This document shows positions 1,984 to 31,507 of a stretch of 64,000 bases of DNA, in pieces. The DNA is from a virus, in the IMG/VR virus record IMGVR_UViG_3300047322_000252, positions 1 through 64,000 of that record. The stretch is one strand, 5' to 3'. Made by a program: the position numbers and the translations under genes. Under the pieces are notes generated by a model. That model was not told where the DNA came from. It worked only from the letters and a program-made list of their open reading frames with translations, and did no database searches. The stretch's first letter is position 1. Each line of letters opens with the position of its first letter.

Positions 1984-2139
1984 TGACAGCGGGGTGGTGC
2001 GAAAGTAAGCCTCCCCAAGGCAGTACCCCATCGACCCGGTTGTGGCCGGGCTACGAGAGGGGAGTGGAGCGGTCCGACGTATCGCCTGGCTCATCCCAGG
2101 CAGAGTAGGCAAGGTCGGCACACTGCCCCGCTGTCACCA
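1984..2139 (+). ncRNA. Candidate structured RNA 1 (about 155 nt)
   Basis: 16-bp closing stem 1984-1999/2121-2136 with 2 G-U pairs; internal stems CTCCCC/GGGGAG, CCCGGT/GCCGGG, CCGAC/GTCGG, GCCTGG/CCAGGC; -10 TACCAT at 1972; ends ACCA. Confidence 0.7.
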
Positions 2140-9207: not shown

Positions 9208-9463
9208 TGACCAGGCCACGGTGCGCCGCAAGCACCGACACGACTGGTCAATCAGTTCTCGCCCGCAAGGGCGAGGGCTGGTGAGAGTGCATCGCCCCCG
9301 GGTGGTGCGTTGTCACCAGCCCCATGGGCCACGGTGCGCACTGCCCCGGCAAGGGTGCTGCGCAGCGGCTGGCATGGCCCAGCACCAGGACAAGCACACA
9401 CGGCGCATTGCCGTGCGACGTCTGTGCCCCTGTGTGTCGTCCGTTCGAGTCGGGCATGGGGTA
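9208..9463 (+). ncRNA. Candidate structured RNA 3 with tRNA-like acceptor/T-arm module
   Basis: Consecutive hairpins with GCAA loops; acceptor-like GCCCCAT 9319-9325/ATGGGGT 9456-9462; T-arm GTCCG TTCGAGT CGGGC 9439-9455. Confidence 0.65.
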
Positions 9464-20800: not shown

Positions 20801-21660
20801 AGCAGGGTGATTCCGCACGCTGTCACCAAGACCTGGTTCCCCTGATAGCAGACTCGATGTGACGTCCTGGACGGGGAGGGTGATGCCGTCGTCATCCTCG
20901 TCGTCCACCCACTCGTTGAAGACGACAACCTCGCTGTCCACCAGCCGCCACGTCTCTTTGATGACTCGGCACTCGTCGGACTCCTCGAAGAACTCGGTGT
21001 CGGTCACCCAGGCGTACTCACCGTAGATGTCGCTGCCGTCCTCCATGCGGTAGGTCACCCACTGCTTGCCCTCCATGAGGCGCTTGTTCTCGGCGTAGAG
21101 GGCACGAAGCTCCTCCCAGGCCCGAGCTAGCTGGTCGGCCAGGTGTGGGTCGGTGCGCTGGTTCTCCATGAGGCGCTGGAGATCACTGGCGATCTCCAGC
21201 ATCTCGTAGCTGTTCCAAATGGGGCGCTCGCCCTCCCGGTACTCGATCAGGCGCTCGCACTCCAACCGGGTGTGGTCCAGGTTCATGCGGCGTCGTCCGG
21301 TACACGGTTGGCGGGCCACTTCGGCCAGCGGGAGGGAGGCTCGCCCAGCACCTCACGGACTAGCTCCGGGTTGGTCTGGCGCCGGAAGGCCAGTTCCTCG
21401 GGGAACAGTTCAAGCTGGCGCTTGAAGCCTTCTCGGTATAGCTCGTCCACGGTGGTGGACGTCTTCGACATGAAGAAGGCCGTGCCGCCGAGGGTGAAAC
21501 GGTGGTCCCAGGGATCGCTACCCAGGCAGTGCCACATGTGCTGCTTGCCATCCACGGCGGGGAGCCAGCACAGGTCGTCCGGGCAGAGCGGGTTCACCAG
21601 AAGGCACCCGTTCCACTTCTCGGGTACCTCGATCTTGGGTACGCCCCACTTCTCCTTCAT
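17891..21660 (-). CDS. Block of small - strand hypothetical genes (e.g. 17891-18130, 18203-18640 PH-like, 18667-19095, 19549-19790, 19772-20014, 19989-20177, 20167-20430, 20418-20658, 20732-21286, 21283-21660; some starts approximate)
   Basis: Overlapping - strand ORFs with phage codon usage; several leaderless -10 boxes (TATCCT, TATGAT, TACAGT, TAGGAT). Confidence 0.6.
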
Positions 21661-21674
21661 ACTCAGAATCCTAA

Positions 21675-21702
21675 CAGGAAGAGGGGGGCCGAAGCCCCCC
21701 TC
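21675..21702 (-). terminator. Intrinsic terminator
   Basis: GAGGGGGGC TTCG GCCCCCCTC followed by TTCCTGTT on the - strand. Confidence 0.75.
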
Positions 21703-21758
21703 TCACCGCATGCCCCAACTCACCCCGAGGCCTCCAGGAGGAGACAGGGGGCACAGTA

Positions 21759-22037
21759 CTACGGATTCAGAACCTCGTACACCCCGTATCGGGCGACCCG
21801 GAGCTTCATGATGATCTCGGCCTCGTCCACGCCCAGGTTCCGCAGCACCATGCGGGCCTCCGCTGAACCGGGCACGGTCACGTTCTGGATGAGTTCACCT
21901 TGCAGCAGGGTCGTGGCCAGAGTGACCGAGCGGGTCCACACGCAGGTGAAGGGCGGGGTCCCGATGTGAAGGCGGGGCGTCACGCTCGTGTAGCCCTTCT
22001 CCAGGTCGGCGGCGATGAAGTCGTCAGGCGTTTGCAT
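21759..22037 (-). CDS. Hypothetical protein (leaderless)
   Basis: -10 TATCAT just before ATG; MQTPDDFIAAD... Confidence 0.65.
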   Translation of the reverse strand: MQTPDDFIAADLEKGYTSVTPRLHIGTPPFTCVWTRSVTLATTLLQGELIQNVTVPGSAEARMVLRNLGVDEAEIIMKLRVARYGVYEVLNP

Positions 22038-22054
22038 ACTGGTATGATAGCGGA

Positions 22055-22171
22055 TGACGGAGGGGCCGATACACCAAACCATGGCGGGGGAGGGGAGCGG
22101 CCCCTCCGTCAGTTCTGGGGCGTTCCCTCAGGAGAGGGCTGATCAGGCGGGTTCGATTCCCGTACGCTCCG
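22055..22171 (+). ncRNA. Candidate RNA 4: 14-bp hairpin plus anticodon-less tRNA-like module
   Basis: TG-G-TATGAT extended -10 at 22040; stem 22055-22068/22098-22111; acceptor GGGGCGT/ACGCTCC; CCCTC/GAGGG arm; T-arm GCGGG TTCGATT CCCGT. Confidence 0.72.
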
Positions 22172-22198
22172 CTGAACCTCCCCCCAATCGGGGAGAAG

Positions 22199-22654
22199 TT
22201 ACTGCGCCCGGCCCCAACCGCCCTTGACCCGGATGCCGGTGAACTGGCGCCCTTCCAGGAGCGCCGCCGTGGCCCGGTGGTGGCCGCTGAGCAGCATGTG
22301 CGTCTCCGGGCAGCCCTCGCACTCCGAGCGGCTGTAGACGACGGGGAAGCGGTTCCCAGGCTCGTGCTCGTTGGCGAAGAGCTTGCCCGATGACTGGTTC
22401 TCGGGGTTCATGTAGTGGGCCACGCCCTCCCGGGTCACCCACGACTGCGTCGAGTGGACCTCTCGGGGGTCGATCTGCTCCGTCTCGGGCGTGCCCCGGA
22501 GGGCCTTGTGGACCAGGTCCTCGTCGTAGGGCATCTGGCGCTTCGAGCGCCCCGCAGCGGGGAAGGGCGGCGTGGTCTTGCCTGCCGACCCCTCGGGGAA
22601 CAGCGAGGACATGCCGCCGCCGTAGAACTTCCCGAACTGATCAGGCTGGAGCAT
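22199..22654 (-). CDS. ParB/Srx N-terminal-like domain protein
   Basis: STQ..V...PVV...LLSGHHRATAA pattern. Confidence 0.7.
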   Translation of the reverse strand: MLQPDQFGKFYGGGMSSLFPEGSAGKTTPPFPAAGRSKRQMPYDEDLVHKALRGTPETEQIDPREVHSTQSWVTREGVAHYMNPENQSSGKLFANEHEPGNRFPVVYSRSECEGCPETHMLLSGHHRATAALLEGRQFTGIRVKGGWGRAQ

Positions 22655-22655
22655 G

Positions 22656-23708
22656 TCAGTCCTTCCAGATCTTCACCGTGGTCTTCTCAGTGGTGTCCAA
22701 GGGTAGACCTTCTGGCCCCTTGATGTGGGGTGCTATGTAAACAGGGCGCCGGAACTGCCTGCCCTCGCCTACGGCCTGTTGGCGCCAGTGGCCCTTGACG
22801 ATCCACCGCTTGGTCCACTCGACGGTCCTGGGCTGGCCTGTTGGGGGCCGGTGGCGGGCGTGGATGTTGACCAGGCGCACGTTGTGGTTCAGCGGGATCG
22901 AGATCTTCTTGCGGTCGATCCTCTTCTGCACCGGCCGGATGGGGCCAGCGGTGGTCGTGCTGACCAGGTTCTCCTGTTGTGACAGCAGGAAGAAGGCGGC
23001 GAGGATGCGCCGGTCCTCTTCCAGCGTGGCCTTCTGGTGCTCCGTGGCCCCCTTGGGGGCGAACTGGCCGCTCGTGTCGAACCCGAAAGGCCAGTCGGTG
23101 CGGCCCAGGGGTTGCCACACCTCCCACTTGCGCCAGAACGCCACCGACACGCCATTGCCCCGGAGACGAAACTCATCGCCTTCCTGGGCGTCGGCAATGA
23201 GCTTCTTCACCTCGTCCGAGAACTGGTCGTTGGTCAGCATGTCCTTGGTATCGACCCATCCGCCCCGCAGGCGCAGGGGGTCGTCCTGTGGGGTCATCTT
23301 GACGGCGCCATCGACTCGTGTCTCTGTTGACACATCAAACTGGCACGGCCCCCACTGCATGGCCTGGAGATCGATCTGGTGGTCCTCCACTCGGGAGTCC
23401 ATGCCCCACAGGGGCTTGGCGAAGAACACCATCCCCGCCCGGGACGGCACCATCTCGTCGGTGAGGGTGGTGGGCGGCAGGTTCTGGTACGCCGCCTGGA
23501 GCAGGTCGCACATGTCCTCGCTGACCCACCACAGTTCGGCCTCGGCCAGTTCCTCGAACATCCACTGGAGCGACTTCAACTGGTAGTCGGGGTTGGCTTC
23601 ATACTGCGGAGCCTGGCCGGTGGAGTACAACCGAGCCATCCGGCTCAGGTTCTCCATCATCTCGATCCGGACTTCCGGGACCATGACGGGGCGCACGATC
23701 AGTGCCAT
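22656..23708 (-). CDS. Conserved phage protein with C-terminal WxVxGHWRxQ motif
   Basis: RWIVKGHWRQQAVG...YIAPHIKGP. Confidence 0.8.
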   Translation of the reverse strand: MALIVRPVMVPEVRIEMMENLSRMARLYSTGQAPQYEANPDYQLKSLQWMFEELAEAELWWVSEDMCDLLQAAYQNLPPTTLTDEMVPSRAGMVFFAKPLWGMDSRVEDHQIDLQAMQWGPCQFDVSTETRVDGAVKMTPQDDPLRLRGGWVDTKDMLTNDQFSDEVKKLIADAQEGDEFRLRGNGVSVAFWRKWEVWQPLGRTDWPFGFDTSGQFAPKGATEHQKATLEEDRRILAAFFLLSQQENLVSTTTAGPIRPVQKRIDRKKISIPLNHNVRLVNIHARHRPPTGQPRTVEWTKRWIVKGHWRQQAVGEGRQFRRPVYIAPHIKGPEGLPLDTTEKTTVKIWKD

Positions 23709-31431: not shown

Positions 31432-31505
31432 GGGGCCATAGCTCAGCCAGGTAGAGCGCCGCCATGGCATGGCGGATGTCAGGGGTTCAACTCCCCTTGG
31501 CTCCA
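31432..31505 (+). tRNA. tRNA-Ala(GGC), CCA not encoded
   Basis: Full cloverleaf: GGGGCCA/TGGCTCC with G3-U70, GCTC/GAGC, CCGCC-ATGGCAT-GGCGG, AGGGG-TTCAACT-CCCCT. Confidence 0.95.
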
Positions 31506-31507
31506 CG

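What the first reader, a model, noticed from the sequence alone, without database searches (positions are those of the whole stretch)
22035..22200. RNA 4: 55-nt anticodon-less mini-tRNA behind a 14-bp hairpin, from a back-to-back promoter
Seen: 22117-22171 has a 7-bp acceptor GGGGCGT/ACGCTCC with a G3-U pair, a 5-bp arm, only CTGATCAG where the anticodon arm should be, and a good T-arm. It is the only + strand unit I see in a - strand block. Its -10 (TATGAT) overlaps the opposite-strand -10 (TATCAT) of gene 21759-22037. Established: G3-U70 is the alanyl-tRNA synthetase identity element also used by tmRNA, though the discriminator here is G rather than A. Inference: a possibly chargeable tRNA mimic that cannot decode and offers no anticodon loop to nucleases.
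Basis: partly seen in the sequence, partly recalled or inferred. Interest (0 to 1): 0.78.

Follow-up and report, generated by a model that had tools for sequence, protein, structure and literature searches.

The report
Anticodon-less alanine-type mini-tRNA in phage
A 118-kb soil phage carries a 55-base tRNA-derived element that keeps the amino-acid-accepting top half of an alanine tRNA but has no anticodon arm, so it cannot read codons; it is probably a small tRNA mimic, but nothing yet shows that it is made or needed.

Summary
Bases 22117-22171 (+) fold into a 7-bp acceptor stem with G3-U70, U8, a 5-bp hairpin with an AGGA loop, an 8-nt linker, a canonical T arm and G73. A perfect 14-bp hairpin and a promoter-like site lie upstream. 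ARAGORN and Rfam do not call the element.

It is clearly tRNA-derived, and its two G-U pairs fit only the + strand. It is not a tmRNA tRNA-like domain. The known phage precedent, the TLD-only tmRNA of phage DS6A, scores 34.7 bits on Rfam tmRNA, while this element gets no tmRNA match.

Three look-alikes share the same unusual build, two in unrelated viral contigs and one in a bacterial MAG. Their hairpins differ from this one by compensatory changes, which argues for a small functional family.

Against function:
- The closest reachable relatives have the two flanking genes adjacent, without the element.
- Homologues of one flanking gene often sit in tRNA arrays, so a decayed tRNA remains possible.
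- No RNA data exist.

My best reading is a stand-alone, probably alanine-chargeable tRNA top-half mimic acting in trans (confidence 0.4). This scan has noted similar anticodon-less mini-tRNAs in other phages.

The parts
22021..22048 (+). Promoter-like site for the + strand unit: TCGTCA, 16-nt spacer, TG-extended TATGAT
   Evidence: 9 of 12 consensus matches; 1 site found against 0.1 expected in shuffles of 21600-22700.
22044..22049 (-). TATCAT on the - strand, overlapping the + strand -10 and lying 6 nt before the ATG (22037) of gene 21759-22037. This spacing would fit a leaderless mRNA.
   Evidence: Read from the sequence. The scan tool did not flag it. Inference only.
22055..22111 (+). Leader hairpin: 14 perfect base pairs with a 29-nt G-rich loop
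   Evidence: The 80 nt upstream of the mini-tRNA fold with z = -3.6. The three look-alike loci have no such hairpin.
22117..22171 (+). The 55-nt anticodon-arm-less tRNA-like element: acceptor 22117-22123/22164-22170 with G3-U70; U8 at 22124; mini D-arm-like hairpin 22125-22138 (loop AGGA); linker 22139-22146; T arm 22147-22163; G73 at 22171
   Evidence: 81.4 bits on model R1, by construction. Best Rfam match is tRNA-Sec, 19.7 bits, E = 0.22.
22178..22195 (.). 6-bp hairpin (CTCCCC/GGGGAG) between the element and the stop codon of gene 22199-22654. It may act as a two-way terminator, but it has no T run.
   Evidence: The terminator scan did not flag it.
21759..22037 (-). Flanking gene P0001 (92 aa), no known family
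   Evidence: Homologues lie directly after P0002 homologues in L065, L101 and L102.
22199..22654 (-). Flanking gene P0002 (151 aa), a ParB/sulfiredoxin-fold protein whose homologues often sit in phage tRNA arrays
   Evidence: model pLDDT 87.5; best PDB matches are sulfiredoxin, Foldseek prob 1.00, E about 7e-3. tRNA neighbours.

Best explanation
This is a stand-alone gene for a tRNA top-half mimic.

Proposed steps (all inferred, none shown):
1. Transcription starts about 22055 from the promoter-like site at 22021-22048.
2. Host RNase P cuts before G22117, removing the 14-bp leader hairpin.
3. The 3' end is trimmed after G22171 and CCA is added.
4. The result is a 55-58-nt RNA with the full acceptor/T-arm helix and a miniature D arm. 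U8 and the loop AGGA could rebuild the tRNA elbow against the TTCGA T loop.

Because the acceptor carries G2-C71, G3-U70 and G4-C69, host AlaRS probably charges it with alanine, less efficiently because position 73 is G and not A. With no anticodon arm it cannot decode.

I think it most likely acts in trans, occupying a host factor that reads only the tRNA top half. One candidate is the SmpB/tmRNA rescue pathway, as proposed for the DS6A TLD-only RNA. Another is a defence enzyme that attacks tRNA acceptor ends.

What is shown is the anatomy, the strand, the promoter-like site and the existence of look-alikes. Everything about processing, charging and target is inference.
For: - All 17 base pairs and the T-loop motif are intact.
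- The two G-T pairs (3-70 and the first T-stem pair) would be C-A mismatches on the - strand. The + strand is therefore the RNA strand, although all neighbouring genes are on the - strand.
- A promoter-like site with an extended -10 lies upstream.
- Three of the four acceptor-branch alanine determinants in PMC9976931 Table 1 are present.
- Look-alikes exist. A viral-contig pattern fixing only GGGGC, the T loop and GCTCC gave 62 loci. Of these, 22 lie inside ordinary tRNAs and 40 are free. Two of the 40, L054 and L040, also resemble this element in the part the pattern left free. Their alignment scores are 5 and 6, against -2 for the next best and a median of -7. Only 4 and 9 of 5000 shuffles reach those scores.
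- A fourth look-alike, L190, is in a bacterial MAG (50.9 bits).
- All four have U8, a 4-5-bp hairpin whose 3-4-nt loop contains GG, and an 8-10-nt linker.
- On six aligned sequences, 4 of the 5 hairpin pairs show changes on both sides. The covariation score is 0.50 against 0.175 in shuffles, 0 of 500 as high.
- The loci share no proteins with each other or with this phage. The RNA therefore recurs on unrelated backgrounds.
- Precedent: a TLD-like molecule strongly inhibits tmRNA, perhaps by titrating SmpB (PMC4131195 passage citing Mao 2009).
Against: - There is no expression evidence. All 24 listed runs that hold the region are DNA.
- The closest relatives I could reach lack the element. In L065 (P0002 60% identical) the P0002 and P0001 homologues are 11 nt apart. 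L101 and L102 are likewise adjacent.
- Model R1 found no mini-tRNA in the 70 loci carrying P0002 homologues (312,892 bases; the weak short hits were inspected). It found none in five whole related viral records.
- P0002 homologues sit beside ordinary tRNA genes in L065, L066, L088 and L125. A relic of such an array is therefore plausible.
- G73 replaces the A73 determinant, and no CCA is encoded.
- Fold stability is not exceptional for this GC content (z = -1.68).
- The family is tiny. Stricter patterns found only L040 or L054 again, and one found none in genome contigs.
- The look-alikes were found with patterns that force the alanine-type acceptor, so conservation of alanine identity is not shown.
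- Only 7 of the 40 free pattern hits have full tRNA geometry, about what chance pairing at positions 6-7 gives.
- The covariation alignment was fitted to the model, which favours the structure.
- The phage encodes no SmpB, CCA-adding enzyme, peptidyl-tRNA hydrolase, RtcB or Ro. No partner points to a pathway.
Confidence: 0.4

Rival explanations
1. A decaying tRNA gene. It would be the remnant of the tRNA array that accompanies the P0002 gene in related phages, having lost its anticodon arm and part of its D loop. It would have no function of its own.
For: - P0002 homologues lie next to ordinary tRNA genes in L065 (Pro, Ile, Ala), L066 (Pro), L125 (Ser, Cys, Asp) and L088 (22 tRNAs).
- The element's last 31 nt are 93.5% identical to the 3' part of a Streptomyces-phage tRNA with anticodon GTC.
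- A tRNA-Cys beside the L125 homologue has almost the same acceptor stem.
- The element is absent from this position in L065, L101 and L102.
- The discriminator is G and no CCA is encoded.
Against: - All 17 pairs and the T loop are intact.
- The element is on the opposite strand to P0002, whereas the relatives' tRNAs are on the same strand as P0002.
- It has its own promoter-like site.
- Making it from a normal tRNA needs at least two separate deletions that leave closed stems.
- The same odd build recurs in unrelated contigs with compensatory hairpin changes. A private pseudogene would not do that.
Confidence: 0.27
2. A cis-acting processing signal, like plant-mitochondrial t-elements or the mascRNA behind MALAT1. 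The tRNA-like fold would recruit RNase P and RNase Z to cut the + strand transcript. The cut would define the 3' end of the upstream 57-nt hairpin RNA, which would be the real product, or stabilise the transcript.
For: - The element directly follows a very stable 14-bp hairpin in the same predicted transcript.
- There is a weak structural match to Rfam mascRNA-menRNA (14.9 bits, E = 3.2).
- A second tRNA-like module at 9319-9462 also sits at the 3' end of a run of hairpins and lacks the alanine G3-U70 pair. A shared role would therefore not need charging.
- Earlier agents of this scan proposed this role for other phage mini-tRNAs (unchecked leads).
Against: - The look-alikes L054, L040 and L190 have no comparable upstream hairpin.
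- The mascRNA score is far below its 42.5-bit gathering score.
- No + strand gene lies on either side whose message would need cutting.
- Retention of three alanine determinants is not needed for processing, although the search patterns forced them in the look-alikes.
Confidence: 0.2
3. A true member of the tmRNA family: a TLD-only (tag-less) tmRNA like that of mycobacteriophage DS6A.
For: It has a G3-U70 acceptor, a T arm, no anticodon and no tag frame. The host range is likely similar (high-GC phage). The DS6A element (JN698994 28478-28556) was located.
Against: - There is no Rfam tmRNA, permuted-tmRNA or mt-tmRNA match at E<=10, whereas DS6A scores 34.7 bits, E = 1.4e-12.
- DS6A has about 13 unpaired nt between the acceptor and its helix and 2 nt before the T arm. 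This element has 1 nt and 8 nt, the reverse arrangement.
- Position 73 is G.
Confidence: 0.05
4. A DNA-level element such as an attachment site copied from a host tRNA gene, or a small protein-coding gene (the 57-codon + strand ORF 22054-22227).
For: Phage attP sites often copy tRNA 3' halves; the T-arm part matches D29-type attP regions at 25 nt. An open frame spans the region.
Against: - An att copy would not include a matching 5' acceptor strand and a hairpin.
- The record is a complete 118-kb genome with terminal repeats.
- The ORF's translation has no candidate homologue, not even a called copy of itself.
Confidence: 0.03

Closest known systems
TLD-only (CDS-less) tmRNA of Mycobacterium phage DS6A (tmRNA Website tmID 11587; PMC4131195, PMC11915505, both citing Mao et al. 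2009, which I could not read)
   Same: Both are phage-encoded and intergenic, with an alanine-type G3-U70 acceptor, a T arm, no anticodon, no tag frame and no encoded CCA. The proposed mode of action (titrating SmpB, inhibiting trans-translation) is the best available model for this element.
   Different: DS6A is 79 nt and matches Rfam tmRNA (34.7 bits). It has a long unpaired D-loop analogue and a helix-2 hairpin next to the T arm, and A73. This element is 55 nt with no tmRNA match. It has 1 nt before a 5-bp hairpin, 8 nt after it, and G73.
CDS-less tmRNAs of jakobid mitochondria and some plastids (Rfam RF02544; discussed in PMC11915505)
   Same: They are reduced to little more than a tRNA-like domain (the plastid genes only about 65 bp, per the PMC11915505 passage), with no reading frame.
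   Different: They are organellar, usually have a permuted gene, and co-occur with SmpB. This element has no RF02544 match at E<=10.
Alanine minihelix and microhelix substrates of AlaRS (reviewed in PMC9976931, alanine identity section)
   Same: The acceptor/T-arm helix with G3-U70 is sufficient for recognition by AlaRS. This is the basis for predicting that the element can be charged.
   Different: Those are laboratory constructs with A73. This is a natural gene with G73 plus a D-arm-like hairpin.
mascRNA (Rfam RF01684) and plant-mitochondrial t-elements
   Same: They are small tRNA-like folds with an acceptor stem and T arm that host tRNA-processing enzymes cut out of a longer transcript.
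   Different: They are eukaryotic or organellar. The Rfam score here is 14.9 bits against a 42.5-bit threshold. No flanking + strand gene needs processing.
Canonical phage tRNA-Ala (this phage's own at 31432-31506)
   Same: The first five acceptor pairs are the same, including G3-U70. It also has a T arm and no encoded CCA.
   Different: The canonical gene is 73-75 nt with a full D arm and a GGC anticodon arm. It scores only 21.7 bits on model R1, against 81.4 for the element.

Membership tests
tmRNA tRNA-like domain (TLD-only form, DS6A type) | Alanine-type acceptor stem with G3-U70 | tested here: met
tmRNA tRNA-like domain (TLD-only form, DS6A type) | Recognised by the tmRNA covariance models (RF00023, permuted, mt-tmRNA) | tested here: not met
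   No such match at E<=10 in 21900-22350. The DS6A positive control scores 34.7 bits, E = 1.4e-12.
tmRNA tRNA-like domain (TLD-only form, DS6A type) | Long unpaired D-loop analogue between the acceptor and helix 2; helix 2 next to the T arm | tested here: not met
   Here there is 1 nt before the hairpin and 8 nt after it. DS6A has about 13 nt before and 2 nt after.
tmRNA tRNA-like domain (TLD-only form, DS6A type) | Binds SmpB and enters stalled ribosomes or inhibits trans-translation | not testable with these tools
   The phage has no SmpB gene. The host factor could not be examined.
Canonical tRNA (RF00005) | Cloverleaf with an anticodon arm | tested here: not met
   No ARAGORN call. No RF00005 match even at E<=10. 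Only 8 nt lie where position 26, the anticodon arm and the variable loop should be.
Canonical tRNA (RF00005) | 7-bp acceptor stem abutting a 5-bp T stem with a TTCRA T loop | tested here: met
Bacterial tRNA-Ala identity set (PMC9976931 Table 1: A73, G2-C71, G3-U70, G4-C69, G20) | G2-C71, G3-U70, G4-C69 | tested here: met
   Sequence; identity set from the paper's Table 1.
Bacterial tRNA-Ala identity set (PMC9976931 Table 1: A73, G2-C71, G3-U70, G4-C69, G20) | A73 discriminator | tested here: not met
   G at 22171. The look-alikes L054, L040 and L190 have A.
Bacterial tRNA-Ala identity set (PMC9976931 Table 1: A73, G2-C71, G3-U70, G4-C69, G20) | Actual aminoacylation by AlaRS | not testable with these tools
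   Needs an enzyme assay.
mascRNA / t-element type processing signals | Match to the family model, and position directly behind a functional transcript on the same strand | tested here: inconclusive
   mascRNA-menRNA scores 14.9 bits against a 42.5-bit gathering score. Only a hairpin lies upstream on the + strand.
Bacterial Y RNA (YrlA) with Ro protein | Ro/TROVE gene in the genome; RNA ends forming the Ro-binding stem | tested here: not met
   No TROVE match in the 118-kb genome. The ends here form a tRNA acceptor stem.

The most novel reading that the evidence does not exclude
This element and its look-alikes (L054, L040, L190) form a mobile, phage-spread class of alanine-chargeable tRNAs stripped of the anticodon arm and keeping only a four-base D loop. 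Once charged, they engage the host's ribosome-rescue or acceptor-end-targeting defence machinery. That would make them a protein-free counter-measure distinct from tmRNA-derived TLDs.
Probability: 0.18. Interest if true: 0.8.

Novelty: new variant of a known kind. Interest (0 to 1): 0.5.

Why it matters
Phages are known to carry tRNAs, and a few carry tmRNAs. One phage, DS6A, carries a tag-less tmRNA thought to block ribosome rescue. A second, structurally different route to an anticodon-less, alanine-type tRNA mimic would mean phages repeatedly evolve RNAs that exploit the tRNA top half, the part read by RNase P, the CCA enzyme, AlaRS, EF-Tu, SmpB and several toxins.

The 55-nt RNA is small and easy to make. 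Charging, SmpB or EF-Tu binding, and decoy activity can all be tested directly. If it is only a relic, it still shows how tRNA arrays around the ParB/Srx-fold gene decay.

Tried and rejected
- Exact 25-mer of the T arm and acceptor in viral contigs: 0 hits.
- Single-protein locus searches with P0002, P0001 and P0003 in viral contigs: no relatives.
- Profile search with alignment A1 gave 33 viral and 37 metagenome loci, best 60% identity. None carries the element.
- Five whole related viral records searched with model R1: only ordinary tRNAs or weak partial hits.
- Stricter family patterns re-found only L040 or only L054. One found none in genome contigs.
- The broader genome contigs pattern gave 74 loci. 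Of 76 pattern matches in them, 48 lie inside tRNA-Sec genes.
- blastn of 22110-22180 against 50,697 phage records matched 505 records. None covers 80% of the query; the matches are T-arm matches to tRNAs and attP regions.
- Sequencing runs: no RNA holder listed, 24 DNA holders.
- Contigs of four runs laid on 21700-22700 were identical to the window. They gave no variation to test and no evidence on expression.
- Order-level search around the MAG that holds L190: 1 of 121 genomes has the mini-tRNA; two other hits are 72-nt tRNAs. Its neighbours are ordinary peptidase genes, so prophage origin is not shown.
- No shared neighbour protein among the look-alike loci. An earlier agent's mini-tRNA plus small cysteine-rich protein pairing was not seen here.
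- No common promoter word upstream of the four structured RNAs of this window.
- The 57-codon ORF has no homologue candidates.
- Literature: five full-text searches turned up no description of a phage anticodon-arm-less mini-tRNA other than the DS6A TLD-only tmRNA. The one hit for 'anticodon-less' (PMC13434031) concerns cleavage products of a defence nuclease.
- Mao et al. 2009 is not held. Paper supplements were not consulted.

Full report
What is there. The window is the first 64 kb of a complete 118,220-bp virus record with direct terminal repeats and about 65% G+C. The runs that hold it are soil and rhizosphere metagenomes.

Between two - strand genes, 21759-22037 (P0001) and 22199-22654 (P0002), lies a 161-nt gap. 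On its + strand the gap holds, in order:
- a promoter-like site, TCGTCA-16 nt-TATGAT with a TG extension, at 22021-22048 (1 found against 0.1 expected)
- a hairpin of 14 perfect pairs at 22055-22111
- five bases
- the 55-nt element at 22117-22171
- a 6-bp hairpin at 22178-22195, ending three bases from the P0002 stop codon

It has a 7-bp acceptor stem with a G-U third pair, U8, a 5-bp hairpin with loop AGGA, the linker CTGATCAG, a 5-bp T stem with loop TTCGATT, and G at position 73. No CCA is encoded. The phage's own two tRNA genes do not encode CCA either.

Is it more than chance? Thermodynamic stability is unremarkable for this GC content (z = -1.68). The arrangement is tRNA-specific, however. 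A structural scan of both strands of the genome found the two real tRNAs, this element, one 144-nt tRNA-like element at 9319-9462, two re-uses of those same T arms, and one other hit. The G-U pairs at 3-70 and at the first T-stem pair would be C-A mismatches on the opposite strand. The + strand is therefore the meaningful one, although every neighbouring gene is on the - strand. ARAGORN and Rfam at gathering score do not call it. At a relaxed threshold the best Rfam matches are tRNA-Sec (19.7 bits, E = 0.22) and mascRNA (14.9 bits).

What it derives from. The last 31 nt (end of linker, T arm, start of the 3' acceptor strand, G73) are 93.5% identical to the 3' part of a GTC-anticodon tRNA of Streptomyces phages TunaTartare and Sham. 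The linker reads like position 26 plus a variable loop. The hairpin looks like a D arm reduced to a four-base loop. From general tRNA knowledge (recalled, not tested), U8, A14, G18, G19 and A21 are the conserved residues that build the elbow with the T loop, and U8 plus AGGA could supply exactly these. So the element is a tRNA minus its anticodon arm and most of its D loop. This is not a single clean deletion.

Comparison with the known precedent. Passages of PMC11915505 and PMC4131195 describe a TLD-only tmRNA in mycobacteriophage DS6A. They cite Mao et al. 2009 (not held) for the finding that such a molecule strongly inhibits tmRNA, perhaps by titrating SmpB. I located the DS6A element at JN698994 28478-28556. 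It scores 34.7 bits (E = 1.4e-12) on Rfam tmRNA. The present element gives no tmRNA-family match at E<=10. Its topology is also reversed, with 1 nt before the hairpin and 8 nt after, against about 13 and 2 in DS6A. It is therefore not a member of the tmRNA family, though it may work in a similar way.

The phage has no SmpB, CCA-adding enzyme, peptidyl-tRNA hydrolase, RtcB or Ro gene. Of the bacterial alanine identity set in PMC9976931 Table 1 (A73, G2-C71, G3-U70, G4-C69, G20), the three stem pairs are present and A73 is not.

Relatives. P0002 has 39 homologues at E<=0.001. A profile search reached 70 loci with at most 60% identity. In L065, L101 and L102 the P0001 homologue follows the P0002 homologue directly, with an 11-nt gap in L065. 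The 161-nt block is therefore absent there. L065 also carries copies of two of this phage's dispersed DNA words, which supports its kinship.

Model R1 found no mini-tRNA in the 70 loci or in five whole related records. P0002 homologues do sit beside ordinary tRNA genes in L065, L066, L088 and L125, on the same strand as the gene. This is the main support for the relic reading. Contigs from four runs were identical to the window, so they offered no variation to examine.

Look-alikes elsewhere. A pattern fixing only GGGGC, the T loop and GCTCC at mini-tRNA spacing gave 62 viral loci. Of these, 22 are internal parts of ordinary tRNAs and 40 are free. Only 7 of the 40 have full tRNA geometry, about the chance rate. 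As a set, then, these hits are not a family.

Two of them, L054 and L040, stand out. In the part the pattern left free they score 5 and 6 against this element, while the next best scores -2 and the median is -7. Only 4 and 9 of 5000 shuffles reach these values. A fourth sequence of the same build, L190, came from a bacterial MAG. It scores 50.9 bits on R1 and occurs in 1 of 121 genomes of its order.

All four have U8, a 4-5-bp hairpin whose short loop contains GG, and an 8-10-nt linker. On six aligned sequences (A5, the four plus L035 and L042), 4 of the 5 hairpin pairs change on both sides. Overall, 95.1% of cells pair against 79.1% in shuffles. Two caveats apply: the alignment was fitted to the model, and acceptor pairs 1-7 were selected for. 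The loci share no proteins with each other or with this phage. Only this phage has the strong upstream hairpin.

Verdict. The element is certainly tRNA-derived and + strand-specific. The recurrence of the same unusual build on unrelated backgrounds, with compensatory changes, tips me towards a functional small RNA. I put about two chances in three on some function. That splits into a trans-acting, probably alanine-chargeable top-half mimic (0.4) and a cis processing signal (0.2). A decayed tRNA is at 0.27. Nothing shows expression, charging or a target.

The published precedent is the DS6A TLD-only tmRNA, from which this element differs in architecture and in failing the tmRNA model. Five full-text searches found no description of this build. 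Earlier agents of this scan reported other anticodon-less mini-tRNA families in other phages. I treat those reports as leads only.

Noticed in passing
window 9319-9462 (+), inside the structured region 9208-9463: A second tRNA-like module. A 7-bp terminal stem (first pair G-T, no G3-U70) abuts a 5-bp T arm with loop TTCGAGT, and two long hairpins sit where the D and anticodon arms would be. Three further hairpins precede it.
   Followed up: partly
window 1984-2139 (+): A 156-nt region folds into a 16-bp terminal stem and ends in ACCA (MFE -75.9 kcal/mol). It starts inside a copy of the phage's dispersed TGACA-type word.
   Followed up: no
window 22199-22654 (-), protein P0002; loci L065, L066, L088, L125: P0002 has no Pfam or PHROG match and carries an invariant LSGHHRATAA motif. 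Its model (pLDDT 87.5) best matches sulfiredoxin, then ParB N-domains (Foldseek prob 1.00, E about 7e-3). In four relatives its homologues sit inside or beside phage tRNA gene arrays.
   Followed up: partly
L164:2277-2327, L194:977-1029, L217:4367-4415 (+), L218:6526-6574 (-): Four bacterial MAG contigs, two labelled Acidimicrobiia/Acidimicrobiaceae, carry a 49-53-nt anticodon-less mini-tRNA. It has a G3-U70 acceptor, a short hairpin, a T arm and A73. The flanks are conserved, with a terminator upstream and a conserved stretch downstream. In the two loci examined it lies in a noncoding gap (about 0.8 kb in L217), next to a large beta-helix protein gene on one side and, in L217, an MDMPI-family gene on the other. 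No Rfam family reaches gathering score.
   Followed up: partly
L138:1884-1945 (Streptomyces phage Sham, ON645339.1 68289-68350): A 62-nt feature annotated tRNA-Ser(cga) lies between the tRNA array and a Ro-like RNA-binding protein gene. It may be a short tRNA-like or Y-RNA-type element rather than a tRNA.
   Followed up: no
L031:2335-2392 and upstream; L013:820-878: These viral-contig hits look like further TLD-only tmRNA-type elements. They have a long unpaired stretch after the acceptor or before a G-rich helix, then a T arm and ACCA or ACTG. They are more like DS6A than like the present element.
   Followed up: no
L065:2490-2530 and 2646-2658: The 4.9-kb relative carries copies of this phage's two dispersed DNA words (a TGTTGT...ACAACA-type palindrome and CATTGACATTGAC) just upstream of its P0002 homologue.
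   Followed up: no
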